Assembly: GCA_032718475.1 (NCBI GenBank)
Contig: JAUCBJ010009138.1
Location: forward strand, 1 to 48,265
Direction of reading: 5' to 3'
Length of the DNA: 48,265 nt
Origin: Nemertoderma westbladi
Taxonomy: Eukaryota; Animalia; Xenacoelomorpha
Below the pieces are notes generated by a model. That model was not told the origin of the DNA, made no database searches, and saw only the letters and a program-made list of their open reading frames with translations. This document shows, one piece after another, positions 2 through 42,203 of this stretch (position 1 is the stretch's first letter; every line of letters begins with the position of its first letter). The translations under genes and the position numbers were made by a program.

Positions 2-1546
2 AGTCTGGAATCGAGGTATGTTAAGATGTTGGATGCTCTCATCCTCGTCCCAATTATAAAGGTCTGCTTGAGTAGTAGCGAAGTTCTTTATAGCCACCAT
101 TTTCACTGACCTTATCCTATGTTCTCCTAGTTCGTCTTGTGGGGTGGACAACACGCCTACATAATAATCAGCTGTTATTGTAGATTTCCAAACTTGCATA
201 ATGCCTGACATGTTGAGCTTAGTTTGGAACTTGGGTTGTCCAGCAAATATATCTTCGGCTAGCTCTTTATCGATGAATGTTCCTGTGCTGCCGGAGTCCA
301 GGAGGGCGTTCACTACATAACTCCGTTTAGGTCCGTGCACCCTTACCTGCACCACAGGAAACTCTCGGATCCCTACATTGGAAGATGGCTCTTTCCAAGA
401 TGGTTGTCGTTCAGAAGTAGTTAGAGTGAAGTCGCTGTCTGTATCCTTTTCATATGTGAGTGCTCGATACACTGCGGTATTTATCATGTAACAGGATTCG
501 TTTTCGTCGGAGAACTCGTCTGTATAGAATCCTTCCATCTCAGATTGATCAGTGTCGTTCACATCACTGAATTGGACATGTAGCTCGGAATCACTTACCT
601 GATTCGGACTATTTCGATCGAATTCAGCGTGCAACAAGATATGATGTTTCGCACCACACTTTGCACACCTTATGTCAGAGAAACAGGTTCGCCGTTGGTG
701 TCCTTGTCTGAGGCAATTATAACATAACCGCTTATCCCACATGACTTCGCGTCTCTCCGTTAATGATTTCTTTAGAAATTCGTCACACCTATTCAAATGG
801 TGGGTCCCGTCACACAGCGCACATTTTGGTTTGATGTTACTTACCTTATTCTGAGTCACATTGTGTACACTGGCCTTTTCTTCGGGCTTTCTCACCTGAA
901 TTCTCTTGGGAGACGTGGGAGGAGTTTTTCTTACCTGTTCTCTCCTGTCATTTGCTCGAGACTTGAATTTACTTACCTGATCTTTAGGCATTTTATTGAC
1001 ATAATAAGATCTATCAGTGTCTTTCCCGCTATCTTCTCCTTGAGAAGTCTGGCTTTCGCCGTCGTCTGTATAACACACTGGTGTTACCTTTCTCCTAGAG
1101 ACGGGTTTTTCACTTACCTTGTTTTCCGGTGTCTTCTCTCGGGACTGCTTGAGGAGTTGCAATTTCACTTCTCCATCCAAGAATGACATGAGATCAGCCA
1201 TGGTAGGGTCTCGTCGTTGTTGTTCCATCATATATAGTACTTTCTTATCCCAGCGTGTACCTACTCCACCCTTCGGTAAAGTAGAAGCCACTGCTCTAAT
1301 AACCATAGTGTTCTGATACTCATGAGACTTGCCTAGCCAATCTAATTGTCTGCAGATCTCCTGGATCTCATCGGAAAACTCGATAATTCCGCTACTAATA
1401 AACTTTCGGGGCGCTACTAACTTTGCATACAAGTACCCAGCGATATTATTCCTATTACCATACCTGATGTTTAGTGTATCCCAAACTTGTCTTAATCCGT
1501 CTGGATGTCCAATAAACTTTAACGCCATTAACTTGGGAGATCCTTC
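2..1546 (-). pseudogene. gag-pol: BEL/Pao element A gag-protease polyprotein fragment (5'-truncated, runs off the left edge)
   Basis: Manual translation of the minus strand is open. It gives a DUF1759-type Gag (VWDTLNIRYGN...IIEFSDEI), three BEL-type knuckles (CALCDGTHHLNRC; CYNCLRQGHQRRTC; CAKCGAKHHILLH) and the aspartic protease motif ALLDSGSTGTFI. It is absent from the ORF track because there is no stop before the window edge. Confidence 0.9.
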
Positions 1547-1553
1547 CTTCCTA

Positions 1554-3623
1554 GGAACTACGCGAATGATACATATACGAGGACCCGCTGGTTCTACCCA
1601 CGTATTCACTCGAGCGTGTTCCGACGTGATTGATTATTCTTTTGAAACTCTTACGGAGATACAAAAGAAACTTTGACATGGACAATTCGAGCTCGCGCAG
1701 CGTTACGTCACCGACACCGAGCGCAAACCGGCCATGGGTATCGATGGATCAATGTTACCCCAACCTGTACTCGCAATGTTGTTTAACGAAAGAATTCTAA
1801 AAATCGGCTCAGCTGTTTATGGAGATCTCCAAAACGACTTCCGGAATATGGAGAACATTCCATACCCTTTCGTTGATACTCAGCTGATTGCTCCTTGGGC
1901 CGAAGGCCGAGGTTTCTTTCGCACCATGTATGCCAATACCCCCAGCGGCATTACTAAAGTACAACGGACATCCATCGGACATCTGGCCTTTCAAGAATAT
2001 GGTTGGAATTTCAAAGTTGGAAATCCTATAAATTACCAGCAAGTATATGGGGATCATTACTCTCGTTTATATTTTGATGGACCATTAACTGCGCCTGGTG
2101 CCGTATATAGCTTTATGAGTGTTCCCCTTCGTCCTTCCTTAGCTATATACACGATCTTTGAAAACGCAGCACTTGCCGGTTGGCTAGCCGATGTGTGCAG
2201 TCGTACCATACGCGCTCACCCGTTAATACTTGGAACTAAACTCGCCAAGTTAGACGAACACAATAAGTTCATACGTTTCGAATGTTTCCGGCGCTTTCTG
2301 ACTCCGTTCCGTAACGTCGATAGTCAGTTCAAGGATCGCGCGCTGACCAAGCTCAGTCTTAGAGACTCAGCTGCAGAGAAACTGAGTAGCGCTGGATTTG
2401 CCGTCTTTCAAGACGTTTGTATACAGAACCTACATTCATCCGTTATACAAAGACCCCGAATATCTACAGGTTATTCTGTCGTGGAAATACAGACAGTGGG
2501 TCCACTTACGGAAACCGACGCACCCACTTCGTCTATGCAGCTGGAGGATGAACCAGTATGCTTGGAATCAGAAGCGATTCAACCTACGGCTTCCCGGAGC
2601 AGTGACAATGATTATGTCATAGAGTGGTATCAAGGTCCACAGCGTCTCACAGCGTACGATTATCGACACGCCAACTACGTTTCCCGAAAACGTTGTCGAT
2701 TATGCGCATCGAGAGACCACTTCACTCCTCTAGACTCGAGCGTACCTTGTTCCTATTTCCTCGAACAACCGATGATGGAAATATATTGTGCTTATTGCCG
2801 GCTTAATAACTCTCATATATTTGCCGTCTGCCCACAATTTATGACTCAATGTCACTACTGCCAACTTAAAGGACACGAAAGTTACAATTGTCCCTTTAAT
2901 CGCGATTTAGAGAGCGTAGACGAGATGATCACCCTGCGATACATCCGAGCTTGGGAAGCGAACGCAGATTTACATTGCGAATCCAGACATCGCTATTACC
3001 CTGGACGAGCTTACGAGGGAGTTTACGCGTTCCATCCTTACCTATTCGCGTCGATTGAACAGAAAACACGCGTACCAAGTTACGAGTTAATAAAGCGTGT
3101 TGGTGAGTGTATTTCCACCAAGTTTGTCAGGAAATACCTTAGAAACGTTAACCCTAATGATATAACCACATATCACCTGATCAATTTTATCCGTCAGGAC
3201 CCTGAGTATGGCGACATTTTCGTGAACTCGCATCCTGAACTCCAGGAAGTATCTCGGCGCCCATATGAATATCGAACCCGAGAACGCGAGCTGGAGAGAA
3301 CCATTAAACCGAGAAAGTTCCTCACCACTCACGGTCCACCCACCGCTAGTGTCCAGACGACCCGTCAAGGACCCGTAGGAGCTGCTGTCCTGAGACGCGC
3401 TCTAAAGGCCGTTAGATCTCGCTCCACTGAGGTTGATATTAATCAACCAGGTACTTCGACCGGCGGGTATACCGATCGTAACCCTGCACCTTCTGATGCA
3501 ATTATATTGCACCCTTCGCCTAGGAGCTACAGCCCTCCTCGTAAAGTGGCTCGCCCCAAAGAGAAAAGGACTCTTGCTAGCCTCAAGAAACTGCGTAAAC
3601 GCCGTCCGCGCAAGAAAGACTAA
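1554..3623 (+). pseudogene. Element A accessory ORF: DEDDy 3'-5' exonuclease-like domain plus CCHC zinc knuckles and a basic C-terminus (N-terminus lost, in-frame TGA at 1674-1676)
   Basis: ORF 1734-3623 is in frame with 1554-1673. Motifs: LPQPVLAMLFNERILKIGSAVYGD (ExoII region), FVDTQ, SIGHLA, PLRPSLAIYTIFE (ExoIII region), CRLC..H..C, CAYC..SH..CP, CHYCQLKGHESYNC. The tail KKLRKRRPRKK is NLS-like. Clearly homologous to 15610-17661. Confidence 0.75.
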
Positions 3624-3693
3624 CTGTTTAGAGTATTTTTATATTTTAGAAATTGTGATTTTGTATATTTTATAGACTTAAATCCCATTTTCT

Positions 3694-3701
3694 GGGAGCG
3701 G
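3694..3701 (+). promoter_or_regulatory. Probable polypurine tract of element A
   Basis: GGGAGCGG lies directly before TGTAAAAG, about 70 bp after the accessory ORF stop. Confidence 0.55.
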
Positions 3702-6186: not shown

Positions 6187-6440
6187 TTAATTAATTAATT
6201 AATTATATAGCGGTTTTCTATGCTCAGCATACTCAAAGCTTTTTTATTATTCCCAGCCAGGTTCAGGTTCCCAGCAATAATGCAAGGGTCCTATTATATA
6301 TACAGCTGAGTTGGTGTACAGGGACATAGTAGGGACACAATAGTGGGAAATTTCTACATAAATTTGATGGATTCGAACTTATATCACCAAATGCAATTGT
6401 GAAAACAGGATCAAGCGCTGTATCCACTCAGACACTGGCA
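6187..6440 (-). mobile_element. Degenerate tRNA-derived SINE with an L2-like 3' tail
   Basis: On the minus strand: A-box-like TGTCTGAGTGG, B-box-like AGTTCGAATCC (6369-6379), then tail GCTTTGAG...GAAAACCGCTATATAA followed by (TTAA)n. Confidence 0.55.
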
Positions 6441-7603
6441 CATTCATGTGCATGGCTGGATTTATGAATAGGACAACTAGGTCATGGCCTCGGGACCTCC
6501 CTCCAGGAGGGGGCCCCCCTGCTTCATTACATTTGCACTTCCATTAAAAGCCCATTAAGGAATATGACCTGACCAGTAGTGCCCCTCGTGATTCAGTAGT
6601 AGGCAGATTTGCCTGCTAGCATATTATTAAATGACAACATTCCAGGTTTGTGGTTTCCCAAAATTTCGATAACCTATTCCACTGGTGATTGTTGAATTTT
6701 CTTCATTGTTTTGTTGGCTAGGTTCAGAAACTAAACAAAAATGCTTAATGGAACTGGATAGATTGCATGATTAAAATGATATGTTAGGTCGACCCTGATT
6801 AGCAGAAAAGTTGAACTGGCCGTAGAGAACCCGAAGACTACTCCTTTCTTTATCCATCAATGCGCGATTCTTATCAGCAATATCTTTCATATCAATTGGT
6901 TGCATTTTATGAGTATAGTTGTGTAGAACGATCCCAATCTGATTTGTAGATTCTTGAGCTATTTTGTTGCTGACATAGTTGAACTGTATACTTTCCTCAG
7001 TGCGAACTGAAGCTTTATAGTTTTTATTTCTTGTAGATTCAAATATTTTGTACCACATTATAGTATCTCATTGACATGAGTTGTCGTAATGCCCTGTATT
7101 TCCTTATTGACGATGAGATAGGAAACTGCTGTATCAAATGATTGCATTCACACAAAACTTCCTTGAAAATGAAGTACTATTGTCGTCACCTTCATTCAGT
7201 CCATAGATACATTCTGAAAAGCTGTAGCTTAATATGTATTATCCTCCCTCGTCGGTTTCAGAAATATTTCATGGTTTGGGCATGATCCTAAAGATATGCG
7301 CAGTGTTCGCGGTATTTCAACTTTTCATAACGCGAGTTGAATATTTTTTGTATTTATTTAAAATGATTATTCCGATATCACTACTGGGTGCGGGACCATG
7401 GGTTTTGGGCACACTCAATGAACTGGGGCGATTTATGGCCGAATATTGGGGCGACTTACAGGGTACGGGATTCATTTCATGTATATAAGGGCCAGGGGGG
7501 GAAGGAAAAGTTAAGCAGTATTCAGGTTTACCTGATTACTATTAGGTCTAGCCAACTTCCTGCTGCCTGTAGAGGTGGATTTGGTAACTCGCTAGGTCTA
7601 AAG

Positions 7604-8420
7604 GACAAGGACTGCCCTTAGCGGTCCCTGGCCAACAGCAGTTATTATGAGCCTGAAAAGGACATCGGAAAGGCTGCTGCTTGTGTCAGGGATTTGCGAC
7701 GGGAAACGACGACAGACCCCGTAGCCAAGCCGTACTGGTTCTCGATTATCGTTCCCTTCGGGGTTCGTGAGGGGTGGGACGGACACGCGAAAGGGTCGAC
7801 CAACTAACAAGAGGAAGGGTTTGACGAGGACTGCCCTTAGCGGTCTCTGGTCAACAGCAGTTATTACGAGCCTGAAAAGGACATCGGAAAGTCTGCTGCT
7901 TGTGCCAGGGATTTGCGACGGGAACCGACGACAGACCCCTTAGCCTAGCCGTACTGGTTCTCGATGATCGTTCCCTTCGGGGTTCGTGAGGGGTGGGACG
8001 GACACGCGACGGGGTCGAAAGACAAAGGACTGGACTCTACTGGCCTACCGACTGTTCGGAGCAGTTTCTCGGCTGCCGAAGCGACTACGAGCCTGAATAA
8101 GGACTCGGAAAGCCTAGGTGGTTGGGTCCTGCGATGAACCGACGGACCCCTAGCCAAGCCGTACTGGTTCTCGATGATCGTTCCCTTCGGGGTTCGTGAG
8201 GGGTGGGACGGACACGTGAACGGGTCCACCGACACGACAGACTCCTAGCCAAGCCATACTGGTTCTCGATGACCGATCCCTTCGGGGTTCGTGAGGGGTG
8301 GTACGGATACGCGACAGAGTCTACTGACTGGACCGACCCTTAGCCAAGCCATACTGGTTCTCGATGATCGATCCCTTCGGGGTTCGGGAGGGGTGGTACG
8401 GACACGCAACAGGGTCGACC
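7604..8420 (+). repeat. Tandem GC-rich repeats within the LTR (two ~219-bp units plus shorter units, five hairpin cores)
   Basis: Core CCGTACTGGTTCTCGATGATCGTTCCCTTCGGGGTTCGTGAGGGGTGGGACGG at ~7730, 7949, 8159, 8254 and 8349. Confidence 0.9.
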
Positions 8421-8567
8421 GACACCGACACTACGGCACCAAGACTAGGACCGAGGGAAAATCTGGGGAACATTAGTTAGGCTAAAATCTGAGAGAACAG
8501 TGGGTAATTAAATAATTTACTGTAGGGATTTATATTGTCGTGTATTATTATTGTGAATAATTTGGTG

Positions 8568-8602
8568 TATATTGGTTTGGGGAAGCCCAATTTATTCTCA
8601 AT
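8568..8602 (+). promoter_or_regulatory. Candidate LTR core promoter (TATA-like plus Inr-like)
   Basis: TATATT at 8568-8573 lies about 26 bp before TTATTC (TYAKTY Inr-like, A at 8594). This coincides with the segment complementary to the PBS position. Confidence 0.45.
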
Positions 8603-8800
8603 CAAGGTTCAACTGTAGGGAAGTTACATTAAAGAGTATATCCAACCAATGCAGCTTTTTCTCAACCGCAATCTTGCATTTAAGAACGGGTTCCTTATCC
8701 ACAATCAATATCCGGTGACTGGCCGGGATTCCGTGGTCTGTAAAGTTCCGCCTCCAGCATCGGCGTTTTCCCCCATGGTGTCGGGAATAACGGCAACAAA

Positions 8801-8812
8801 ATTGAGAATAAA
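8801..8812 (+). promoter_or_regulatory. Primer-binding-site position: non-tRNA, complementary to LTR 8591-8602
   Basis: ATTGAGAATAAA lies 2 nt after the LTR end, has no TGG, and is the exact reverse complement of TTTATTCTCAAT. Confidence 0.7.
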
Positions 8813-9005
8813 ACGCGGCCAACTTCAACTGGTGGAAGTTGGGAATCCTGCAATACTCTTCAAACTCTCTCCGTGCTTACCCAGCACCCACTACGAGGAA
8901 ACTCTGGTATTTGAGTTAAGACAAAGCCGTGGTTTAATCAATCGACAAACTCGATCAAATAAACTCGTAGTCGGCAGATCACATATAGAGAGTCGTTAAC
9001 AGGGA

Positions 9006-9197
9006 ATGGAAGTATCGATCACACCCATTGACATAATTCAAGTTGAGCCAGGAATCTGGCACGTCGAGGTTGAAGTACAAGGAACGAACGTCGGACGATT
9101 CAGGATTACCGTTCGAGTAGTCCAAGCCGAGTACGAGAGCTACGAAGAACTATTCTATGACATCGCATATCTCGCTATCAACGAGGCGCTAGAATGA
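9006..9197 (+). CDS. 63-aa small upstream ORF overlapping the gag start (ATGA)
   Basis: Good start context (GGAATGG). Alternating hydrophobic beta-strand pattern followed by an acidic amphipathic helix. Its TGA overlaps the gag ATG at 9194. Confidence 0.4.
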   Translation: MEVSITPIDIIQVEPGIWHVEVEVQGTNVGRFRITVRVVQAEYESYEELFYDIAYLAINEALE

Positions 9198-12100
9198 CAA
9201 CGAACAACGTCTCCGACACCGATGAGATGGACACCCGCACAGACTCGGAAGCCGACGAGGTACCGAATATCAAGAACATGACCCGTCGACTAGGTGCTCT
9301 CAAAGGCGGAGTCACTCGAGCGTATCAGCGTATAGAGAAACAACTCAAGAGAGTCGAAACTCCCCTCAACGAGATACAAACTCAGCTTCAGAATATCCGA
9401 AGTATCTTACAACGATATGAGAGGATGATACAGGCGTATCAAGAACTCGTTCCCTCCACCGATCAGGTAAACTACCCCAGGTTAGAAGAACATGTTGTAC
9501 ATCTAGATGAGTTCCGCAAACAACACCGGAGGACCCTCAGCCTTGTGAGAGGCTACGAAGAACAGTACTACAAGAGAGCTGAAAGAACAGACGCAGAATC
9601 GGTGCGAACCTCCAGCACCAGGACAGCAATACATCGAAAGAGAACGGGGTCCTCTAGGAACCAGCACTCCAGCGCTAGGAGCGCGGTGTCCGGTTCAGCA
9701 CACAGCTCTCAAGGGGGTCAGCCACTCCGGTCAGAACAGAAGGCATTAGCCCTCAAAGCTCGGATGGAAGATGAGTATGTTCAACTGCGAACCGAGCAAG
9801 ATGTATTAGCCGCCGAAATGCAAAACGAGAGGCCGAACAAGCGGCCGAACGGCAGGTTGAACAACGCGAACAGGAGGCTGAACAACATAGACAAGAGGCC
9901 GAACGGCAGGCCGAACAGCATAGACGAGAGGCCGAACAACGTGAACAGGAAGCTGAACAACGTGGACGAGAGGCCAAACAAGAGATCGAACAATGTAAAT
10001 GGGAAGCAGAAATGCGTAAACAACACGCCGAGGCCCAAGCGATTCTCATCCACAAAAAGAATGCGGATATTGCGAAACTCGCGGAATACGAAGCCGCGCT
10101 TTTAGAACGAGATATTCAAATATACGAGGACTGGGAAAGGGGTATAGACCAGAACTATGAACCAATACCGATACCAGAATTAGAGAAGTCCTTAACGACA
10201 CCGGCGGTGAAACCTCCGAAACCCGAGTTCCCGCCTACCATACAGTCTACGTTATTGGCACAAGCACCGGTATTCCATCCCCCACCGGTTACGCTTAAGA
10301 ATGAGGAACCTTATATCCCAGCCAACCCCACGGTCCCGAGCGTTCCCAAGTACGAGCCTGAAAAGGACTCGGAACGGGTCGCTACTCCTCGATCCAACAA
10401 CCCGTTTACATCCACACCACAAATCCGTAGCCGCGTCATCATTAAAACTCCACCTATCATCGATCCATCGTGCATGGGAGAGAGTGCCAATAACTATAAC
10501 CCTCCTAGTCATTCCGGTTCAGACGACGTTGGCATTATCCAGGCATTAGAGAACCGACTGGCCATGCCCAAGATGGAGATCCGCACCTTCGAAGGAGATC
10601 CCGTCGATTACCTCAGATTCAAGAAACGGTTTTTCGCGCAGATTGGATCAACGGACATAGCCGACGCACAAAAGCTAGTATATTTATCCCAATACCTGGG
10701 CGACAAACCACGCCGGATTATTGCATGCTTCGAGGGAGGAGCTCATGAGGCATACTATGACGCATGGAAAACTCTAGATAAAAGATACGGAAATATCGGG
10801 ACTATAATTAATAAAACTCTCGAGAAACTGATACAGGACGCGGGATCCCTAGGGGACCCACAGAATATCCAAGAATTCTCAGATTCGATGAAGGATGCCT
10901 ACTACACTCTAAAACCATTAAATAAGGAGGAACAAGTAAACAACATTCTAAACCTCCGACAGATCGCCCGGAAGTTCCCCGGATGGCTACAAAGTAAGTG
11001 GGCGTATAAATGCGTAGATCTCCGGCGCAGACACCCAGATCGATGATCCCAGTTTCCTCGAAATGTCGGCATTCCTGGACGATATCTCCGAAGCCATGAA
11101 TGACTCGATGTTCTCGAAACAGAGTCTCGCCAAGTTAGACGGAATAGAGAGCAACTCCAGGAGTAAGACGCCCACTCAGAAACCGAGATTCCGTCCCCCT
11201 CCGGTGAGTACGATGGCCATCACCATGGCCGAGGATTCCGATGACGAAGACTACGAGGAACCGACATCAGCCGAGGAATGGGCGTGTTACCTTGCGAATT
11301 GGGCACCCGAAAGGGGAGGCATCACAAACTCCCTTCTCTGTCTCTTCTGCGGAGAGAAACATAAAGTGGAATTCTGCAGGAAGTTCCAGTTTGCCGAACT
11401 CGTCCCACGCTTCGAGGCAATAATGAAACACCGAGGATGCTTCCGGTGTCTTGGAACAGGTCACTATGTTCGGGATTGCGACCAAAGATCATGCTGTGCG
11501 GTCTGTAATGACCTACGTCATCACACACTCCTCCACATCCCCACGAACTTTGACTTCACCACCCTCCCCTTTCGGATTGAAGCCAAACGAAGAGGAGAAA
11601 CGAACCACGTTTCTAAAGGAACCCGGACGACCCAACGGAGAGAAACCAACCCGTTTAAAACCTCCACCGATGCATCACAAGTAACAAATATCTCAGCCAC
11701 GATCAACCTTATAAATCGCCGTTACATGGTCTTCGCCAAAGTAATCCCAGTAAGAATTCAAGGGGTCGGGAAATCCTTGACAACGCTCGCGTTCCTTGAT
11801 AACGGGTCGGACGGAACCATCATCGACCGGGATTTCCTCGAGCAAATCGGCCTAGACTATGAACCTTGCAAACGGCCCATACAAACTATCACCGACCATA
11901 GAGAAGTAGAATCCGGGGAGGTGCAGCTCCAGATGGAAGGAGTAATGAAGGGCTACGAGACGGTTAAGCTGACAATCAAGAATGCCTTGGTACACACCGA
12001 TCTCCGAGTGCGGTTCCGACAATCAGCCGAATACGCCCCTCTCATACAGTTAGACCGGGAAGATGTAGACCTAAGGTGCCTGCCGTTGGACGTAAACCGC

Positions 12101-12511
12101 ATCACCCTATTGATCGGACTTGACACACCGGAATTACACATACCCACCGGAGACGTCGCCCGATCTATAAAGCAGGATGACGGCTTTTACGCTGAACGAA
12201 CAATAATGGGATGGACACTCTGCGGCATCAAGGAAGAGACTACAGACACCTATACATACCTTCCTAAATGTCAGATTAAAGAGAATGCAACCTCCGTGGG
12301 TTATTGTTCGGTGACCGACCTCCACTCACCATCACGGCGACACACCACGTTTGTAGCGAACCGAGCCACGGAGATAAAACAGTGCACCGGCCGAGAACAG
12401 TGGCACCATGTAAATGGGAAAGAAAACCCAGCTGACTTATCGAGCAGAGGCGCCACCCCACGACAGCTCGGTAAAAGTAAACTCTGGCTTACAGGCCCGA
12501 AATTCCTATAG
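9194..12511 (+). pseudogene. gag-pol: Element B gag-protease fused to an RNase H C-terminal remnant; frameshifts at ~9822 and ~11042; RT deleted at ~12320
   Basis: Coiled-coil Gag and DUF1759-like FEGDPVDYLRF...KLVYLSQYL. Knuckles CLFCGEKH..C, CFRCLGTGH..C and CAVCNDLRHHTLLH. Protease AFLDNGSDGT and RTIMGWTLCG, followed directly by FVANR...WHHVNGKENPADLSSRG. Confidence 0.92.
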
Positions 12512-14245
12512 CAGCCACAATTAACATGGAGTACCCGATTCGATCCCGAACTCGATAGCGGAAAATACTCCGAGGACGACAAAAAAGGCCGTAAAGTCCA
12601 TAGAAGCAGCGCAGTGGAAATCTATAGTTGTCTGACCGAGCCTGCAAAGGACTCGGGTAGGCACTATAACGTCGCGACAATCACTCAACCAGCGGCGTCT
12701 TTACATCTGTTGATCGAGCGAACTTCATCAATGAGACGGCTCATCCACCACATTATAACCCTTCGCTACTTCCTACGGTGGAAAGACAACAAGCCGATAG
12801 TTCAACGGAGTATACAAGAACTCATTATCGCGGAGAAGTGTATTGTTGGATATGTCCAGAGAGAAAGTTTCCCCGATGAGTGAGAACAACTCAGTGCGGG
12901 CAAGACCTTGAAACCGGACAACCCAGTCTACCAACTGAGACCAATGATGGGAGAGGACGGACTGATTCGACTGAATACCCGGATGGCAAACGCCCCGGTT
13001 GAATATGAGGTTAAATACCCAGCGCTTCTGCCCGGAATGTCGACACTAGCCAAGCTATTAATCCAACAGTGCCACGAGGAAAACCATCACGCAGGACAGA
13101 ACTGGATTATAGCTAATATACGACAAAGGTATTGGATCACCCACATCCAGCCACTGATCCGGAATGTGTTAAAACGTTGCTTTCCCTGCAGAAGATATCT
13201 AGCGCCACCACTCACACAAAAGATGGCCGACTTACCAGCCACCCATCTACAGTCCGATTCCCCACCGTTCTATGTAACCGGAGTAGACTGTTTCGGACCG
13301 TTTACAATCATCGAGCGACGATCCAACATCAAATGCTGGGGAGCCATCTTTACCTGCCTTAGGTCTAGGGCAATCTACCTAGACATCGTGGTGAACCTTA
13401 CGCAACACGCATTCATCAACGCCCTGCGTCGGTTTGTGGCGAACAATGGGACATGTCTTCATATGTACTCCGATAAAGGTACAAACTTTGTGGGAGGAGA
13501 AAGAGAACTTAGAGAGGCGATCGAGGGATGGTTTACCAAGGACACCGCATCCCAAGTCTGGAGGGACCACCATATACAGTGGCACTTCCAAACACCCTTA
13601 GCACCCCATACGAGCGGGGTATGGGAGAAGCTAATCGACTTAGTAAAACGATCTATGCGCGTCGCATTAGGAGACACCCGCGTAACCCATGACACCCTCC
13701 GCACAACATTCTGCGAGATCGCGGCTACCCTGAACAACCGGCCCATTGTCCCTATCCGCGACGACCCCACAGACCTGGAGCCTCTCACTCCTAACCACCT
13801 ACTGGGAAGACCCAAAACCCATATTCTCCCAGAGATGATGTTTCCGGATCCCAACGATATCGCGAGACATACAAATTGGAAGAAGGCCCAAGCGTTGGCG
13901 GCGCATTGGTGGAGAATCTGGGCCCAGGAGTACCTCATAACCCTCCGGACCAGGAGGAAGTGGAACAACACCTATAGGAATGTCGCGGTTGGCGACATGG
14001 CGCTAGTGAAAGAAGATCTCAAAGACCGCGTCCACTGGCCTGTGGCGCGAGTCGTGACAATACACCCGAGCAAAGACGGACTTGCGAGGACTGTGACGAT
14101 ACGAATGGCAAAGGGCCACTACCAACGCCATATCCAGAGGCTGTGCCTTCTTGAAGGCAATGACAGTGGTGACTCTACGAGAGGTGATATGTTCCCTACT
14201 CAGGATCCTGCTGCAGACATTGGTGACAATGCTAAACCCGTGTAA
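12512..14245 (+). pseudogene. pol: Element B integrase region (same frame, read through stops at 12509-12511 and 12881-12883)
   Basis: HHCC finger (HEENHH...CFPC), DDE core (GVDCFGP, SDKGTNFVG, GVWEKL), PLTPNHLL, and the BEL C-terminal domain (WAQEYL...WPVARV). Confidence 0.93.
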
Positions 14246-14518
14246 ACCCTTCTCATACTGTTGACAAACTCTTTTAAAATGTGATTTATCGACAATGAAA
14301 ATGGACACCCTTAAACCAACTGTAACCACGCAATGGTATTTGTGTTTCCTCGTGTGTTATGTGGAGTCCAGCGTCACCCTGCAGATGTTTCGACTGATGC
14401 AGTGTCGTTTATGTATTGTTAACCCTGATTTTGGTCAACAGGACCAACGACATTGGATTATTGGAAATGGTAAAGATTTGAAGTGGAATTCATTGTATTC
14501 ATTGTAGTATGTTATGTT

Positions 14519-14945
14519 GTCCGTTGCGTGCGCAGTTCGGGGCGTAGGCGGTGTAACTAGTCCAGCTGTAGATCCCGGATTGCCGCGCAACACCCCCTCT
14601 ATCCCGTTATTCTGGTGGGTCCATGGTGCATCCACATGACTTCGACGATAGAGGTTTTAAGTTTCTCAGTCGCGCTATTCTGGTGGGACCGTTCCGTGGA
14701 TTTTGGGGCGTAGGCGGTGTAACTAGTCCAGCTGTAGATCCCAGAATGTTGCGTAACCCCATCCCACATGACTTCGTCGGCTGAGCTTTATGTTGCTGGG
14801 AGTGTTATTCTGGTGGGTCCCTGGTGCATTCCACGTGACTTCACTTCCAGCGTCTTCATTGTCCGTTACGTGTGCAGTTTGGGGCGTAGGCGGTGTAACT
14901 AGCCCAGCTGTAGATCCCAGATTGCCGCGTAACACCCCTTCCACA
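14519..14945 (+). repeat. Three imperfect direct repeats between integrase and the accessory ORF
   Basis: GGGGCGTAGGCGGTGTAACTAG(T/C)CCAGCTGTAGATCCC at ~14539, 14705 and 14881. TATTCTGGTGGG also occurs three times. Confidence 0.85.
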
Positions 14946-15485
14946 ACGAAAATTTCCCAAAGAAGATGATTGAATGTAGTTGGAAATGATGAAAAGAAAC
15001 AGACGACATTATTATAAACTGAATGGTGACGCGTATGCTGATGAAAATGTAATGATGCGCACCCTGGTGCTGCGCTTATAACAAATGATGATAGCCGGGG
15101 GGCTATAACCCCAATGATGATGTGGAAATAAATGAAATGTGAAATGGTGGAAATAAATGATGAAATGTGTTGAAATAAATGAAATGTGAAATGAAATAAT
15201 AATGAGAAATGAAAAAAGACAAAAAAAAGGTATAAAAATGTAAAAAGAAAAGAATTGGAAAAAAGAAGAGGACATAAAAAGTCAAAACTGGTTGGATATT
15301 AATGTATAGCTATAGTAACTGTAAATGCTGAATGTATTAGCAATAAGATGGTAGATGCCTATATAGCAATGTTGTTTAATAAACTGAATTAAAAATAAAC
15401 TGAATTATTCTGCAATCACTATAGTATCAGACTTTCTAGACTTATAATTAACTGATATAAATTTGCAACGGACATAATTGTAAAT

Positions 15486-17686
15486 ATGGACCCAAATCGC
15501 CAAATTATCGGCGAATTACGTAATACGATAGATCTACTGCCTCAACCTGGATCCACAACCTGGAGCCCCTAACTTTGATACAAATTGGAGCACCCTGATA
15601 AATGAGAATGTGCGAGTCGTCAAATTCTCCGGGCGAGAGGGACCGGATTCCCGGAATCTACGAGCCCTCCGGTTGGCCGATGCTAGTACGAGACTGAAAA
15701 GAACTCGGAATGCAAAGGCTACCGGAGGGGATGAGTTGTCGTACTGGGATACGTTCTGGCAAAGCGTCTACAAATCCCAATGTTTGATATACGACAACGA
15801 GGGAAACGCAACGCCCACCTCGAAAGCGATGACGTTGGCGCGATGTCAAAGTTTCGTCGACGACAAGAGTACGTACTGGGGAAACCTAGCGGAGTGTACG
15901 GCGACGCTACGAGAGGAACGTATATCGGTTATCCAGAATCGCGACGACTACCAGGAGAAGTACGAGACGAAAGAATACGGTCGATCCTTGGTCGTCGTCT
16001 TCGGTACCCTGGACGGTTTGGTGTTGGTGTGTCGAATATTTCCGACACCCAGACAGGAGGTACGGACAGCCGGAGCGATCTGGCTACTACCGCCGGAGAT
16101 CCAAAAGATCCTCTTCGACTTCGACGTTATTAAAATCGGGTCGGATATAAAAGCGGACGTCCGTAACGACTACGCGAACGCTCCTTTCGGAAGAGACCGT
16201 AAAGAAGATCTCAATGCCATTAGTCACTGCATCGACACCCAGACACTACTAGCCTGGTTACGATCCGCCGAATTCATGCGAGGATTCCGCGAGGTGAGAC
16301 AGACGAAATCCGGGATCGGCTACCTCGCTGTGCTAAACGGCGGCATCGACTTTAAACCTCAGAAATTCCAGGACTATAATAAGATATATGGTGGATACCC
16401 GGGATTAGAAATAAGGAGCGAGCGAGAGAGTCGATGGAAGGACGTTGACAGGAGGTGGACGATACACCAAAGGTGGGAGAATCCCAATCGACGGAACTAC
16501 ATCTACGTTGTTATGGAGCCCTACACCGTCGCTAAGTTTATATGTAAAACTCTCGATAACCTCATTACGGCGGTTCCTCTTTCCTTTGTCGACTACGACT
16601 GGAACGAGGTTATAAACAACGCGTTCAAAGCGGTCGAGAATATTACACTGGGAGAGACAAAAACGTTCACCGTTATCGATTCCTGGGACGAGAACGGACC
16701 TTACAACATCCCTACGATTACCGATCTTCTCGGTGCGGAGGAGCCTCTGATTTCTTCGGAAGGGGAAGAACTATGGCTACATGAGGGCGTTCTACTGTCT
16801 ACCCCAAAGCGACCACTCGAGCCGGAAGCTGCGTATGAACCGGCCGCCAAATGGGTTGCCTCGGCCGAACCTGCGACGGAAGCAGGTGCTTCCACCCCAC
16901 TCGGCTCCGGTAGCCCTGCGAGGGAGTTAGTCACCACCTCCGCGTTGAGCGACTTTGGCGACATATGCCAGAGGTTATCCCCATATCCTTTCCCGGGTGG
17001 CGAAGACTGGTCGTCGGAGATTCCGAGTACCAGCAATCAACAGACCCGCTCAGCGATACTGGTCGAGAAGGGTCCTAGCGCTACGCCGACTCCCGAAGAT
17101 CTCCTTGGAATTCCTCCGTCGAAAACCCCGGCACCTCTGCGCCGACCAGCAGTGACAACTACCCCCTCCGTTCCACAGGATCCTATGCGATTAACCCGAT
17201 GGTACGCCGAGCAGACCGAATGGATCCACCGCCAGAAACGGTCGTCCGAGATGAGACTGGCAGGACATAAAGAAGGTTATCGGAGCGAGAACCTACTACG
17301 CCAAAGCCCAGCCTTCCGCGGGCTACCGGCCACCGCGAATATTCAAAAGAGCGACCGACGACTCGAGTATTACGTCGGCGTCTCAATTCCGATATTCCCC
17401 GGTCGAGAGATGCAGTTGGAGATATGCGCAAACTGCGGTTCGGAGCAGTGCCCACGTGGTAGACGAAATCGGGTTACCGATTCGTGCCTACAGCTCCTCG
17501 GGATCCTGTATTGCCCATACTGCGCGACATCGGGACATGATGTCTCGGTTTGTCCAATCCTTTATAACCTCTGCACAACTTGCGGTTTCCGTGGACATTC
17601 CACTAGCCCCCGCTGCTATATAAAATGTCCTACAAAAGACGTTACCACTATGGGAAATTAGGTCATGTTCGAAACATACGCAAACG
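15486..17686 (+). pseudogene. Element B accessory ORF: DEDDy 3'-5' exonuclease-like domain, Pro-rich linker, zinc knuckles
   Basis: Main frame 15610-17661. Probable true ATG at 15486 with a 1-nt frameshift at ~15549. ExoI IYDNEG, ExoII VIKIGSDIKAD, CIDTQ, GIGYLA, ExoIII W...YVVME, then CPYCATSGHDVSVCP and CTTCGFRGH. Truncated by the deletion into the 3' LTR. Confidence 0.78.
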
Positions 17687-18190
17687 GGGGTGGTACGGAT
17701 ACGCGACAGAGTCTACCGACTGGACCGACCCTTAGCCAAGCCGTACTGGTTCTCGATGATCGATCCCTTCGGGGTTCGGGAGGGGTGGTACGGACACGCA
17801 GCAGGGTCGACCAACACCGACACTACGGCACCAAGACTAGGACCGAGGGAAAATCTGGGGAACATTAGTTAGGCTAAAATCTGAGAGAACAGTGGGTAAT
17901 TAAATAATTTACTGTAGGGATTTATATTGTCGTGTATTATTATTGTGAATAATTTGGTGTATATTGGTTTGGGGAAGCCCAATTTATTCTCAATCAAGGT
18001 TCAACTGTAGGGAAGTTACATTAAAGAGTATATCCAACCAATGCAGCCTTTTCTCAACCGCAATCTTGCATTTAAGAACGGGTTCCTTCTCCACAATCAA
18101 TATCCGGTGACTGGCCGGGATTCCGTGGTCTGTAAAGTTCCGCCTCCAGCATCGGCGTTTTCCCCCATGGTGTCGGGAATAACGGCAACA
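17687..18190 (+). repeat. 3' LTR of element B (5'-truncated, 504 bp)
   Basis: Collinear with 8295-8798, about 6 substitutions by eye. Confidence 0.95.
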
Positions 18191-18995
18191 CGCAGAGATG
18201 GGATTTGATTTAAGGTGGTAAAAAGTATTTTTTCAATATTTTCTGGAAACCTTCCCATTACATTTAAAATTCGATGTAAAACAAATATGTATTCGAGCTG
18301 TACAAGTGGAACCTCAAATATTACATATTTCTTAAAGTAATGGCTCATGGGAGCATTTTTGAAAAAGAAAAAGTTTTTTTTCCTAAAATGGCCACACTTA
18401 CTTGAAATTTGCACTATTTGAGGTTCCACTTGTGTAGCTCAAAATTCAGTATACGGGTCGAAAATTTCATGACAATTGGATTTACAGATCTCGAGAAAAA
18501 GGAACGTGAATAAAATTAGGTCCGCAATATCGCGGAAGGAGTAAATGGAGCTGAAAGTCAAAATATATAGAATGTGCCATATTAATACATATACATATGA
18601 GTTTTGAAAGATTATGATTCATGTGATGTTAGTTGGATTTTCGGAATGAACATAAAATTCTGCTCTAGTGGGGAAATCTGGGAATAAAATTTCAAAATAA
18701 ATGAATTTCAAAAAATGATCTTATACGAATTACAAATGTCAATGCTGCATATATGCTGCATATATGCTGCATATAACAAAGACCAATCCGCCAAGGTAAT
18801 ATTTCATGAGCATAATTCAAACAAGAAAAGGGAATAACTGGAACATGTACTGGAAGTAGAACATGCCTCTTTAAAAAATGAGCCAAATTTTGAAAAATTG
18901 GCAAACCTCCGCTTTGATAAATTTCACCGAAAAATAATGCTTATAACTTTTGCATGCTTGGCATAAACCGTAAACATATATTATATTTGTTATAG

Positions 18996-19267: not shown

Positions 19268-22200
19268 TATGAACAATACTGTCTGATATCCTGGAGTAAA
19301 ATAGTCCTATGTACAGTAAAAATCGCATAGACATAAACAAAAAAGGTCTTATGTACAATACTGCCTGATATCCTGGAGTAAAATAGTCCTATGTACAGTA
19401 AAAATCGCATAGACATAAACAAAAAAGGTCTTATGTACAATACTGCCTGATATCCTGGAGTAAAATAGTCCTATGTACAGTAAAAATCGCATAGACATAA
19501 ACAAAAAAGGTCTTTTTTACAATACTGCCTGATATCCTGGAGTAAAATAGTCCTATGTACAGTAAAAATCGCATAGACATAAACAAAAAAGGTCTTATGT
19601 ACAATACTGCCTGATATCCTGGAGTAAAATAGTCCTATGTACAGTAAAAATCGCATAGACATAAACAAAAAAGGTCTTATGTACAATACTGCCTGATATC
19701 CTGGAGTAAAATAGTCCTTATGTACAGTAAAAATCGCATAGACATAAACAAAAAAGGTCTTATGAACAATACTGCCTGATATCCTGGAGTAAAATAGTCC
19801 TATGTACAGAAAAAATCGCATAGACATAAACAAAAAAGGTCTTATGAACAATACTGCCTGATATCCTGGAGTAAAATAATCCTATGTACAGTAAAAATCG
19901 CATAGACATAAACAAAAAAGGTCTTATGTACAATACTGCCTGATATCCTGGAGTAAAATAGTCCTTATGTACAGTAAAAATCGCATAGACATAAACAAAA
20001 AAGGTCTTATGAACAATACTGCCTGATATCCTGGAGTAAAATAGTCCTATGTACAGTAAAAATCGCATAGACATAAACAAAAAAGGTCTTATGAACAATA
20101 CTGCCTGATATCCTGGAGTAAAATAGTCCTATGTACAGTAAAAATCGCATAGACATAAACAAAAAAGGTCTTATGAACAATACTGCCTGATATCCTGGAG
20201 TAAAATAGTCCTATGTACAGTAAAAATCGCATAGACATAAACAAAAAAGGTCTTATGTACAATACTGCCTGATATCCTGGAGTAAAATAGTCCTTATGTA
20301 CAGTAAAAATCGCATAGACATAAACAAAAAAGGTCTTATGTACAATACTGCCTGATATCCTGGAGTAAAATAGTCCTTATGTACAGTAAAAATCGCATAG
20401 ACATAAACAAAAAAGGTCTTATGAACAATACTGCCTGATATCCTGGAGTAAAATAGTCCTATGTACAGTAAAAATCGCATAGACATAAACAAAAAAGGTC
20501 TTATGAACAATACTGCCTGATATCCTGGAGTAAAATAGTCCTATGTACAGTAAAAATCGCATAGACATAAACAAAAAAGGTCTTATGTACAATACTGCCT
20601 GATATCCTGGAGTAAAATAGTCCTTATGTACAGTAAAAATCGCATAGACATAAACAAAAAAGGTCTTATGTACAATACTGCCTGATATCCTGGAGTAAAA
20701 TAGTCCTTATGTACAGTAAAAATCGCATAGACATAAACAAAAAAGGTCTTATGTACAATACTGCCTGATATCCTGGAGTAAAATAGTCCTTATGTACAGT
20801 AAAAATCGCATAGACATAAACAAAAAAGGTCTTATGTACAATACTGCCTGATATCCTGGAGTAAAATAGTCCTTATGTACAGTAAAAATCGCATAGACAT
20901 AAACAAAAAAGGTCTTATGAACAATACTGCCTGATATCCTGGAGTAAAATAGTCCTATGTACAGTAAAAATCGCATAGACATAAACAAAAAAGGTCTTAT
21001 GAACAATACTGCCTGATATCCTGGAGTAAAATAGTCCTATGTACAGTAAAAATCGCATAGACATAAACAAAAAAGGTCTTATGAACAATACTGCCTGATA
21101 TCCTGGAGTAAAATAGTCCTATGTACAGTAAAAATCGCATAGACATAAACAAAAAAGGTCTTATGTACAATACTGCCTGATATCCTGGAGTAAAATAGTC
21201 CTTATGTACAGTAAAAATCGCATAGACATAAACAAAAAAGGTCTTATGTACAATACTGCCTGATATCCTGGAGTAAAATAGTCCTATGTACAGTAAAAAT
21301 CGCATAGACATAAACAAAAAAGGTCTTATGAACAATACTGCCTGATATCCTGGAGTAAAATAGTCCTATGTACAGTAAAAATCGCATAGACATAAACAAA
21401 AAAGGTCTTATGTACAATACTGCCTGATATCCTGGAGTAAAATAATCCTATGTACAGTAAAAATCGCATAGACATAAACAAAAAAGGTCTTATGAACAAT
21501 ACTGCCTGATATCCTGGAGTAAAATAGTCCTATGTACAGAAAAAATCGCATAGACATAAACAAAAAAGGTCTTATTTACAATACTGCCTGATATCCTGGA
21601 GTAAAATAGTCCTATGTACAGAAAAAATCGCATAGACATAAACAAAAAAGGTCTTATGTACAATACTGCCTGATATCCTGGAGTAAAATAGTCCTTATGT
21701 ACAGTAAAAATCGCATAGACATAAACAAAAAAGGTCTTATGTACAATACTGCCTGATATCCTGGAGTAAAATAATCCTATGTACAGTAAAAATCGCATAG
21801 ACATAAACAAAAAAGGTCTTATGAACAATACTGCCTGATATCCTGGAGTAAAATAGTCCTATGTACAGAAAAAATCGCATAGACATAAACAAAAAAGGTC
21901 TTATTTACAATACTGCCTGATATCCTGGAGTAAAATAGTCCTATGTACAGAAAAAATCGCATAGACATAAACAAAAAAGGTCTTATGTACAATACTGCCT
22001 GATATCCTGCTGGAGTAAAATAGTCCTATGTACAGTAAAAATCGCATAGACATAAACAAAAAAGGTCTTATGTACAATACTGCCTGATATCCTGGAGTAA
22101 AATAGTCCTATGTACAGAAAAAATCGCATAGACATAAACAAAAAAGGTCTTATGTACAATACTGCCTGATATCCTGGAGTAAAATAGTCCTATGTACAGT

Positions 22201-22915
22201 AAAAATCGCATAGACATAAACAAAAAAGGTCTTATGAACAATACTGCCTGATATCCTGGAGTAAAATAGTCCTATGTACAGTAAAAATCGCATAGACATA
22301 AACAAAAAAGGTCTTATGTACAATACTGCCTGATATCCTGGAGTAAAATAGTCCTATGTACAGTAAAAATCGCATAGACATAAACAAAAAAGGTCTTATG
22401 AACAATACTGCCTGATATCCTGGAGTAAAATAGTCCTATGTACAGAAAAAATCGCATAGACATAAACAAAAAAGGTCTTATTTACAATACTGCCTGATAT
22501 CCTGGAGTAAAATAGTCCTATGTACAGAAAAAATCGCATAGACATAAACAAAAAAGGTCTTATGTACAATACTGCCTGATATCCTGGAGTAAAATAGTCC
22601 TTATGTACAGTAAAAATCGCATAGACATAAACAAAAAAGGTCTTATGTACAATACTGCCTGATATCCTGGAGTAAAATAATCCTATGTACAGTAAAAATC
22701 GCATAGACATAAACAAAAAAGGTCTTATGAACAATACTGCCTGATATCCTGCTGGAGTAAAATAGTCCTATGTACAGTAAAAATCGCATAGACATAAACA
22801 AAAAAGGTCTTATGTACAATACTGCCTGATATCCTGCTGGAGTAAAATAGTCCTATGTACAGTAAAAATCGCATAGACATAAACAAAAAAGGTCTTATTT
22901 ACAATACTGCCTGAT
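19268..22915. repeat. 82/83-bp intronic satellite, about 44 copies
   Basis: Unit TATGTACAATACTGCCTGATATCCTGGAGTAAAATAGTCCTATGTACAGTAAAAATCGCATAGACATAAACAAAAAAGGTCT, near-identical copies. Confidence 0.97.
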
Positions 22916-26160: not shown

Positions 26161-26269
26161 TGGCGCATCCTTTACTTCCACAATGATCGGACCACTCACA
26201 ACAGGACAATATCTCTCAACTGATATAACCCCATTGAATAATCTAATATCCTCAGTGAAACTTGTATAA
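26161..26269 (+). CDS. Beta/gamma-crystallin-family gene, last coding exon (Greek key 4)
   Basis: ttcctttcag|, in frame: NGASFTSTMIGPLTTGQYLSTDITPLNNLISSVKLV*. Confidence 0.85.
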
Positions 26270-36302: not shown

Positions 36303-36625
36303 GACCTGGGAGCACGGGGAGCCGGCAATGGACTTTGCGGCAAGCACAATCCGACTGGGCGAGCAACCGGGGATGGCACCACGGGTAGTGTTTGGAGAAA
36401 CGATGCTGAGTGTGGAGGAGGACATCGATATGGGTAGGGAAGACAACGTCGAGATGTTTACCTACCAGCGGCTTCACAGACCCAGGAGCCCACGTGGAGC
36501 CAAGGACGACTTGGGGCGAGAGACAATGATACACGGTTACGATTTCTGTGGGAGATTAACCCATCAGCAAAAGAACTGTCTATTCGTTACCAGAAGGGGA
36601 CGGCGTGTCTTCACTTTACAAAATT

Positions 36626-41100: not shown

Positions 41101-41170
41101 TTCATTATTCAATTTGTTCTTTATACCATCAACATTCCACCAAAGTATCCTAATAAGATGATCTATACAT
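38114..41170 (-). pseudogene. LINE ORF2 (APE endonuclease plus RT) with frameshifts at ~40745 and ~39062
   Basis: WNVDGI, IVFLSE, GDFN and SNH (APE). GPDGI, NYRGISL, FVDFKTAFD, GLRQG, LLMDDT and YVYLG (RT). C-terminal CACG...EEH...C. Confidence 0.9.
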
Positions 41171-42111: not shown

Positions 42112-42203
42112 TGTCTTTTCCGTAATACGGTATAATTATTAATTATTGCATATATTTCAGAATTTATCCGGTATTAACAAATACAAAAAAGGCGGACATA
42201 CCG

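What the first reader, a model, noticed from the sequence alone, without database searches (positions are those of the whole stretch)
15486..17686. BEL/Pao retrotransposons carrying a DEDDy 3'-5' exonuclease/zinc-knuckle gene in the env position
Seen: element B has, between integrase and the 3' LTR, a ~700-aa ORF with ExoI (IYDNEG), ExoII (KIGSDIKAD) and ExoIII-region (W..YVVME) motifs in the order typical of WRN-exo/EXD2/MUT-7 domains, then a Pro-rich linker and CCHC knuckles. It has no obvious signal peptide or TM helix, so it is not env-like. Known: related DEDDy domains act in small-RNA pathways (MUT-7/Nibbler trimming, EXD1). I do not know of such an ORF as a described BEL/Pao component. 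Inference: an accessory RNA-binding nuclease for anti-silencing, primer trimming or proofreading for RT.
Basis: partly seen in the sequence, partly recalled or inferred. Interest (0 to 1): 0.9.

Follow-up and report, generated by a model that had tools for sequence, protein, structure and literature searches.

The report
BEL/Pao retrotransposons carrying EXD2-like exonuclease gene
A multi-copy jumping gene of the BEL/Pao group in an animal genome carries, where some relatives carry an envelope gene, an extra gene whose protein is predicted to join an RNA-trimming enzyme domain to zinc knuckles and likely helps the element against host silencing; a similar cargo was already described in rotifer elements of another group.

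Summary
Largely confirmed. Window 7304-18190 is a defective BEL/Pao copy (TGTT...AACA ends, 5-bp target duplication, empty site in other contigs; reverse transcriptase missing). Behind its integrase lies a 709-codon ORF3 with ExoI (D88/E90), ExoII (D209), a variant ExoIII (YxxxE, not YxxxD), a ~50-residue insert, a Pro-rich linker and two CCHC knuckles. Pfam misses it and its own model is unusable; a homologue's model matches EXD2/Nibbler/WRN (Foldseek E 6e-7, Z 11.3). ORF3 is a regular part of the family: contig depth over it is close to that over integrase, and 19 of 30 listed differences between copies in the nuclease part are synonymous (27% expected). A second, 28%-identical ORF3 lies beside another BEL gag-protease in the window, and an outside protein shares the layout. 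This copy's ATG is out of frame. DEDDy ORF3s are published for bdelloid Juno/Vesta elements (PMC5408684), and this scan noted nuclease ORF3s in Gypsy elements of other genomes; 10 paper searches found none for BEL/Pao. Activity and role are untested; counter-silencing is my best guess. New variant of a known kind; interest 0.52.

The parts
7299..7303 (+). 5' target-site duplication CGCAG (partner 18191-18195)
   Evidence: contigs of X1 and X2 (one sample) join 7298 to 18191 with 5 letters fitting both sides = empty site
7304..8798 (+). 5' LTR of element B, about 1.5 kb, TGTT...AACA, with internal 219-bp and 95-bp tandem repeats
8801..8812 (+). primer-binding position; 12 nt complementary to LTR 8591-8602 (candidate self-priming)
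   Evidence: 0 of 1000 mononucleotide shuffles of the LTR give a complement this long
9161..12511 (+). gag (coiled coil, DUF1759, Cys/His knuckles) and aspartic protease, broken over three frames; protease runs straight into the end of RNase H near 12310, so RT is missing in this copy
12884..14245 (+). integrase (H2C2 zinc finger, core, DUF5641)
   Evidence: DUF5641 E 3e-27, Integrase_H2C2 E 2.3e-09
14246..15485 (+). 1.2-kb non-coding spacer with three copies of a ~80-nt repeat and an A+T-rich tract
   Evidence: repeats fold no better than shuffles
15486..15572 (+). ATG-started 28-codon frame, out of frame with the long ORF; break in this copy near 15540-15550
   Evidence: contigs of other copies differ in length at this spot (table 4)
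15532..17661 (+). ORF3, 709 codons stop to stop
15724..16566 (+). EXD2/WRN-like 3'-5' exonuclease-fold domain (aa ~65-345): ExoI D88/E90 (15793-15801), ~50-aa insert, ExoII D209 (16156-16158), ExoIII Y325-x3-E329 (16504-16518)
16789..17181 (+). Pro/Ser/Thr-rich linker (aa 420-550)
17425..17616 (+). CxxC plus two CCHC zinc knuckles (17512-17553, 17572-17616)
   Evidence: same pair in element A ORF3 and P0002; the P0002 pair matches retroviral nucleocapsid knuckles, E 1e-4
17687..18190 (+). 3' LTR remnant, equal to 8295-8798 with 6 mismatches in 504 bp; first 991 bp of the LTR absent
1677..3623 (+). second, 5'-truncated ORF3 (element A): ExoII, ExoIII YxxxE and two Cys/His knuckles; ExoI not present in this copy
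   Evidence: 28% over 113 aa, E 2e-9, pairwise; profile of three outside homologues, E 5e-11 among 947 window peptides
2..1633 (-). BEL gag-protease fragment abutting element A ORF3 head to head (probable internal inversion, inferred)
   Evidence: DUF1759 E 2.5e-4, Asp_protease_2 E 1.1e-3; 27-28% identical to element B gag/PR

Best explanation
This is a third gene (ORF3) carried by a multi-copy BEL/Pao LTR retrotransposon family, whose product is predicted to be an EXD2/WRN/MUT-7-class 3'-5' exonuclease domain joined to two zinc knuckles and likely serves the element by binding and trimming RNA 3' ends, most likely the host's small silencing RNAs or their target fragments. Shown: position between integrase and 3' LTR, motifs, knuckles, presence across family copies, excess of synonymous differences, a second divergent ORF3 beside another BEL gag-protease. 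Predicted: the fold (through a homologue's model). Inferred: expression as a separate protein from intact copies, metal binding by D88/E90/D209/E329 with Glu standing in for the last Asp, RNA binding by the knuckles, and the counter-silencing role. My odds: fold about 0.93; regular, selected family component about 0.9; catalytically active about 0.6; counter-silencing as main job about 0.4.
For: Fold: a profile of the five family sequences finds EXD2 as the only match among 177,635 PDB sequences at E up to 10 (E 0.13, with ExoII and ExoIII in register); the model of homologue P0004 (core pLDDT 60-85) gives EXD2 E 6.4e-7, then Egalitarian, NrnC, RNase D, WRN, EXD1, Nibbler and Z 11.3 EXD2 (rmsd 3.8, 116 aligned), 10.9 Nibbler, 10.2 WRN; the window protein is tied to P0004 by phmmer E 8.4e-4 among 1.84 billion proteins, BLASTP 22% over 289 aa and a three-homologue profile (E 7e-24 among 947 window peptides). 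ExoI placed by block test. Family trait: summed contig depth over ORF3 is 0.90, 0.69 and 0.81 of that over integrase in X1, X2, X3, and about 40-105 times the right flank; X5 contigs of 85-91% identity are colinear across the domain. Selection: 19 of 30 listed differences in aa 1-345 synonymous against 27% expected, binomial p 4e-5. Same exonuclease-linker-knuckle layout in element A and in P0002. Role: the nearest solved relatives include small-RNA pathway and RNA-transport proteins (Nibbler, EXD1, Egalitarian; their roles from my own knowledge and PMC5408684); most BEL/Pao elements have only gag-pol (PMC3118150 passages), which argues for an accessory rather than a core replication job.
Against: The window protein's own model failed (pLDDT 39.6; Foldseek best E 0.21; no Z of 5 or more), and Pfam, NCBIfam and phmmer against PDB gave no exonuclease hit for it. 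The P0004 model used the same five-sequence alignment, so it is not independent of my choice of homologues. ExoIII has Glu for Asp and a ~50-residue insert follows ExoI, either of which could impair catalysis. The selection count rests on the 40 of 345 rows that the tool showed as best supported (39 inside the ORF), so it is not a dN/dS; the linker/knuckle part shows no excess (4 of 9, p 0.33). Summed contig depth is not a copy number. Nothing here bears directly on substrate or role; PMC5408684 found no clear link between DEDDy ORF3 and copy number and largely neutral intragenomic variation in the env and GDSL ORF3s it sequenced.
Confidence: 0.45

Rival explanations
1. The nuclease works inside the particle during reverse transcription: it would trim an unpaired 3' tail from the primer or mismatched ends from cDNA (primer maturation or proofreading).
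For: The knuckle pair resembles nucleocapsid knuckles (for P0002), which could bring the protein into the particle; the element has a 12-nt complement between its primer-binding position and its own LTR, and a self-made primer needs a defined 3' end; WRN and polymerase proofreading domains are among the fold matches; PMC5408684 proposes 3'-end processing of element RNA for the bdelloid ORFs.
Against: Most BEL/Pao elements replicate without such a gene (PMC3118150 passages); unchecked notes of this scan report self-priming signatures in many BEL/Pao families without mentioning a nuclease; ORF3 is separate from pol, 1.2 kb downstream.
Confidence: 0.27
2. The domain is a weak or dead nuclease kept for RNA binding, as in Egalitarian or EXD1, and would carry or shield the element's RNA (for instance transport into the germ line).
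For: ExoIII Glu in B, A, P0002 and P0004; P0004 also has Glu at ExoII; the ~50-residue insert after ExoI; Egalitarian (including a complex with I-factor RNA) and EXD1 are among the fold matches.
Against: All four acidic positions stay acidic and the Tyr is invariant in the five sequences where present; P0003 keeps a canonical D-E-D-(Y)D set; none of the 30 listed differences in the domain falls on D88, E90, D209, Y325 or E329 (only 40 of 345 rows seen).
Confidence: 0.2
3. ORF3 is a captured host gene fragment that rides along without function.
For: This copy is frameshifted at the 5' end and the copy in element A is truncated; no expression data could be had.
Against: Excess of synonymous differences; a 2.1-kb open frame; two versions only 28% identical, each next to BEL genes, with the same layout; no introns; only 12-17% identity of the homologue's model to host EXD2/WRN structures.
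Confidence: 0.08

Closest known systems
DEDDy-exonuclease ORF3 of bdelloid rotifer Juno and Vesta LTR retrotransposons and Athena/Terminon retroelements (Rodriguez, Kenefick, Arkhipova 2017, PMC5408684; parts 1-3 of 5 of the text and passages read)
   Same: A DEDDy-type 3'-5' exonuclease gene downstream of pol in the env position, without env features, with one catalytic Asp changed to Glu; function untested.
   Different: Host element is BEL/Pao, not the bdelloid Juno/Vesta/TelKA/Mag lineages; the changed residue is the last Asp (D-E-D-E) rather than 'DEED'; the protein is ~700 aa with a Pro-rich linker and two C-terminal CCHC knuckles, which that paper does not report for its ORF3s (it notes a Cys-His-Cys motif in Vesta2/5).
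EXD2 / WRN exonuclease / Nibbler (MUT-7) / EXD1 / Egalitarian group of DEDDy-fold proteins
   Same: Predicted fold and order of ExoI-ExoII-ExoIII, including LP..l..lL.D..v.KiG and W...L...q..Y elements.
   Different: Below Pfam threshold; YxxxE at ExoIII; ~50-residue insert after ExoI; longer ExoII-ExoIII segment (102-120 residues); intronless, element-borne, fused to knuckles.
BEL/Pao elements with env (e.g. the few noted in PMC3118150, passages)
   Same: Third gene in the same slot of a BEL/Pao element.
   Different: The gene is a nuclease-fold/knuckle protein, not a fusion glycoprotein; the word 'exonuclease' does not occur in the main text of PMC3118150 or PMC2774666.
Dada DNA transposons with a DEDDy domain (Kojima and Jurka 2013, PMC3706591; passages)
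   Same: Mobile element encoding a DEDDy exonuclease.
   Different: There it is inserted inside a DDE transposase and keeps all four DEDD residues; not a retroelement, not a separate gene.

Membership tests
BEL/Pao LTR retrotransposons | LTRs with TG...CA ends and a short target-site duplication | tested here: met
   TGTT...AACA, CGCAG on both sides, empty-site contigs
BEL/Pao LTR retrotransposons | BEL-type Gag and integrase domains (DUF1759, three Cys/His Gag motifs, DUF5641; their link to BEL/Pao is recalled knowledge) | tested here: met
   DUF1759 E 1.1e-13, DUF5641 E 3e-27, Integrase_H2C2 E 2.3e-9; three Cys/His motifs visible in 11018-12511
BEL/Pao LTR retrotransposons | Order gag-PR-RT-RH-IN | tested here: inconclusive
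   gag, PR, end of RH and IN are in this order, but RT is deleted in this copy
BEL/Pao LTR retrotransposons | Placement in the BEL/Pao clade by RT phylogeny | not testable with these tools
   no RT in this copy and no genome held
DEDDy 3'-5' exonucleases (EXD2/WRN/RNase D group) | ExoI D-x-E after a helix and hydrophobic strand | tested here: met
   D88/E90; block score 21.0 vs -1.3, 2 of 2000 shuffles
DEDDy 3'-5' exonucleases (EXD2/WRN/RNase D group) | ExoII Asp | tested here: met
   D209 in KIGSDIKAD, in register with the EXD2 ExoII segment
DEDDy 3'-5' exonucleases (EXD2/WRN/RNase D group) | ExoIII Y-x3-D | tested here: not met
   Y325-x3-E329; Glu also in element A, P0002, P0004; Asp only in P0003. 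Hence filed as a DEDDy-fold variant, not a canonical member
DEDDy 3'-5' exonucleases (EXD2/WRN/RNase D group) | DnaQ-like fold | tested here: met
   met through homologue P0004 (Foldseek E 6.4e-7, Z 11.3 to EXD2); the window protein's own model was unusable
DEDDy 3'-5' exonucleases (EXD2/WRN/RNase D group) | Score above the curated cut-off of Pfam PF01612 or NCBIfam RNase D | tested here: not met
   no hit for the window ORF; P0002 PF01612 E 0.2; one member of A2 RNase D TIGR01388 E 0.0038 (by elimination, the element A sequence)
DEDDy 3'-5' exonucleases (EXD2/WRN/RNase D group) | Two-metal 3'-5' exonuclease activity | not testable with these tools
   needs an assay
Bdelloid DEDDy ORF3 group (Juno/Vesta/Athena) | DEED motif | tested here: not met
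   window protein has Asp at ExoII and Glu at ExoIII; paper states DEED
Bdelloid DEDDy ORF3 group (Juno/Vesta/Athena) | Clusters with these ORFs in a phylogeny | not tested
env (fusion glycoprotein) ORF3 | C-terminal membrane anchor / glycoprotein homology | tested here: not met
   no Pfam glycoprotein hit; the three most hydrophobic 19-mers all start at aa 152-154, inside the nuclease fold; no dedicated signal-peptide predictor was run

The most novel reading that the evidence does not exclude
An old BEL/Pao lineage spread over several animal hosts has carried, since before its families diverged to ~28% identity, its own active EXD2-like exonuclease with a non-canonical D-E-D-E metal site and zinc knuckles, which works as an element-encoded suppressor of piRNA/siRNA silencing and explains the family's high copy number.
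Probability: 0.25. Interest if true: 0.8.

Novelty: new variant of a known kind. Interest (0 to 1): 0.52.

Why it matters
LTR retrotransposons are usually taught as gag-pol with an optional env. Nuclease cargo in the env slot was reported in bdelloid rotifers but never assayed. Finding it in BEL/Pao, a separate branch of LTR elements, in two very divergent families of one genome, under purifying selection and fused to knuckles, points to repeated recruitment of RNA-end-processing enzymes by retroelements. It gives a compact domain with defined catalytic candidates, so the open question of what these ORF3 nucleases do (counter-silencing, primer or cDNA trimming, RNA transport) becomes directly testable. 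The YxxxE variant would also extend the known chemistry of DEDDy sites if active.

Tried and rejected
No whole genome is held, so no genome-wide tblastn or true dN/dS. Word-based protein searches: 0 hits for the window domain, only the query members for alignment A2 and P0002. P0001 was dropped as a false hit (fibronectin repeats). Locus searches for context in other taxa found nothing: viral contigs with A3, P0002 and the integrase, metagenome contigs with the window ORF and P0002; so whether P0002-P0004 lie in BEL elements is unknown. The protein Atlas could not take either sequence. tblastn of P0003 against plasmids: no match. PHROGs: nothing significant. phmmer of window ORF3, element A ORF3 and P0003 against PDB: no exonuclease. 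The window protein's AlphaFold model failed; its MAFFT alignment had ExoI out of register. I first read MAFFT alignments A2/A4 as showing ExoI lost in the window protein (aa ~130-142); the ungapped block test overturned this. 'DTE' near the start of element A's ORF is not ExoI (block score 5-9 against 19-28 for true sites). No RNA holder listed among sequencing runs. Rfam on 3600-18300: two chance-level matches only; LTR and spacer repeats fold no better than shuffles. Literature: 10 searches found no paper placing an exonuclease in BEL/Pao; one search's phrase cannot match the slash spelling, Repbase and GyDB cannot be searched, and Malik et al. 2000 (Genome Res) was not held, so absence from print is not proven.

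Full report
Anatomy. The window is animal-type repetitive DNA. Self-comparison gives a 504-bp direct repeat, 8295-8798 and 17687-18190, with 6 mismatches. Contigs of public runs define the true ends: contigs of X1 and X2 (one sample) join 7298 to 18191 with five letters that fit both sides, and the window has CGCAG at 7299-7303 and 18191-18195 around TGTT...AACA. Element B is thus 7304-18190, polymorphic for presence, with a 1.5-kb 5' LTR and a 3' LTR that lacks its first 991 bp. Inside are a gag-protease region broken over three frames (DUF1759 E 1.1e-13, Asp_protease_2 E 1.2e-4), an integrase (DUF5641 E 3e-27, Integrase_H2C2 E 2.3e-9) and no RT motif in any frame; the protease runs into the end of RNase H near 12310. 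That DUF1759 and DUF5641 mark BEL/Pao is recalled knowledge. This copy is defective.

The ORF. A frame of 709 codons, stop to stop, lies at 15532-17661. Contigs of other copies differ in length near 15540-15550, so the break belongs to this copy or a subset. Whether the C-terminus is complete is not settled: element A's ORF3 and P0002 run on for about 240 and 95 residues behind the knuckles.

Is it an exonuclease fold? Pfam gives nothing. An exhaustive phmmer search of 1.84 billion representatives with aa 1-383 returned 4 proteins at E up to 0.001; one was a fibronectin-repeat false hit and was dropped; the other three, P0002-P0004, are unnamed singletons from ENA contigs of 2-9 kb. They show D-x-E, ExoII and Y-x3-D/E motifs with spacings 68-76 and 102-103. 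A profile from these three alone finds 2 of 947 window peptides above threshold: ORF3 of element B (E 7e-24) and the ORF at 1677 (E 5e-11). A five-sequence profile finds EXD2 as the only PDB sequence at E up to 10 (E 0.13), with ExoII and ExoIII in register. The window protein's own model failed (pLDDT 39.6; EXD2 ranks first in Foldseek but at E 0.21; no Z of 5 or more). The model of P0004 has a usable core and gives 41 PDB matches at E up to 0.001, led by EXD2 (6.4e-7) and including Egalitarian, NrnC, RNase D, WRN, EXD1 and Nibbler; the wide search gives Z 11.3 for EXD2, 10.9 Nibbler, 10.2 WRN, with DnaQ-fold proteins filling nearly all of the 50 rows. P0004 and the window protein align over 289 residues at 22%. 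The fold is therefore well supported by transitivity, not directly.

Active site. MAFFT put ExoI of the homologues on aa ~130-142 of the window protein, where no D-x-E exists. An ungapped block test corrected this: the 20-residue helix-plus-strand block scores 21.0 at D88, -1.3 at the next best place, and 2 of 2000 shuffles reach it; leave-one-out scores for the true sites are 24-25.5. ExoII is D209. ExoIII is Y-x3-E in B, A, P0002 and P0004 and Y-x3-D in P0003. So the set is D-E-D-E, a variant; activity is plausible (all four acidic, Tyr kept) but not shown.

Family trait, not one-off. Summed contig depth over ORF3 is 0.90, 0.69 and 0.81 of that over integrase in X1, X2 and X3, and averages about 17,000 against 170-430 on the right flank; the tool warns that this is no copy number, so I say only multi-copy, probably hundreds. 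The four runs come from at most three studies, and the best holder may be the window's own source. Two X5 contigs, about 91% and 85% identical, are colinear over the N-terminal half of the domain, insert included. Of the 40 difference rows shown (of 345), 39 lie in the ORF; in aa 1-345, 19 of 30 are synonymous against 27% expected for the same mutation spectrum (p 4e-5); in the rest 4 of 9 (p 0.33). The rows were picked by the tool, so this is indicative of purifying selection, not a dN/dS.

A second family. The ORF at 1677-3623 is 28% identical over 113 residues (E 2e-9) and has the same knuckle pair. It starts behind ExoI and abuts, head to head, a BEL gag-protease fragment on the minus strand (2-1633) that is 27-28% identical to element B's. 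An internal inversion of one element explains this (inferred; the window edge hides the rest). If so, two BEL families about as divergent in ORF3 as in gag both carry the gene, which points to an old acquisition. P0002 has the same exonuclease-linker-knuckle layout, but its context could not be fetched, so the spread across taxa is open.

How it likely works. Shown: position, motifs, family-wide presence, synonymous excess. Predicted: fold. Inferred: intact copies make a separate ORF3 protein, the knuckles bind single-stranded RNA and the nuclease domain trims 3' ends. I favour a host-conflict role (degrading or mis-trimming small silencing RNAs or their target fragments; about 0.4) because the nearest solved relatives include small-RNA pathway proteins and because most BEL/Pao elements manage with gag-pol alone (PMC3118150, passages). 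Rivals: trimming of primer or cDNA ends in the particle (0.27; the element has a 12-nt complement between its primer-binding position and its own LTR), a non-catalytic RNA carrier like Egalitarian or EXD1 (0.2), and neutral cargo (0.08). No result here discriminates among the first three.

Comparison with what is known. Rodriguez, Kenefick and Arkhipova 2017 (PMC5408684; parts 1-3 of 5 and passages read) describe DEDDy-type ORF3s, with DEDD changed to DEED, in bdelloid Juno and Vesta LTR elements and in Athena/Terminon elements, acquired at least twice, and list 3'-end processing and a mut-7-like role as possibilities. Reviews repeat this (PMC5718144, PMC6431247; passages). Dada DNA transposons carry a DEDDy domain inside the transposase (PMC3706591; passages). 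Two BEL/Pao surveys do not contain the word exonuclease in their main text (PMC2774666, PMC3118150; their supplements were not examined). Ten searches found no BEL/Pao case (hits other than those named were seen only as listings, apart from passages of PMC11662393, which were irrelevant); Repbase, GyDB and most subscription papers were out of reach. Unchecked notes of this scan report Rrp6-like, DEDDh and TatD nuclease ORF3s in Gypsy elements of other genomes and none for BEL/Pao or for this sequence.

Verdict. Real, family-wide and probably functional cargo; concept known from another LTR group; new in host group, knuckle fusion and active-site variant. New variant of a known kind, interest 0.52.

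Noticed in passing
window 8801-8812 and 8591-8602: The sequence just behind the 5' LTR has no TGG start and is complementary over 12 nt to a stretch inside the LTR, about 25 nt downstream of a TATA-like word (8567-8574); 0 of 1000 shuffles give as long a complement (shuffles ignore the local A+T richness). Candidate self-priming, as noted for other BEL/Pao elements by this scan.
   Followed up: partly
window 2-3623 and ~3702-4350: Element A: BEL gag-protease on the minus strand head to head with a truncated ORF3 on the plus strand, followed by a possible LTR starting TGT at 3702 behind a purine-rich tract; looks like an internal inversion with a breakpoint at about 1634-1677.
   Followed up: partly
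window 7604-8430: The 5' LTR contains nested 219-bp and 95-bp tandem repeats with a CCCTTCGGGG hairpin; no Rfam match and no folding better than shuffles.
   Followed up: partly
window 19268-22915 and 26086-34540: Two satellite arrays: 82-bp unit, 44 copies, 97% matches, and a 23-bp unit over about 8.4 kb that is open in all three minus-strand frames.
   Followed up: no
window 38114-42135 (-) and 46388-48265 / 35597-36555: Two non-LTR retrotransposons: one with a coiled-coil ORF1 and an RT ORF flanked by GA-rich repeats, and an RTE-like one (RVT_1 E 7e-29, DUF6451) with inverted fragments.
   Followed up: no
proteins P0002-P0004: Three unnamed ENA singletons form, with the two window ORFs, a small EXD2-like family with variable catalytic sets (D-E-D-E, D-E-D-D, D-E-E-E); their genomic context is unknown.
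   Followed up: partly
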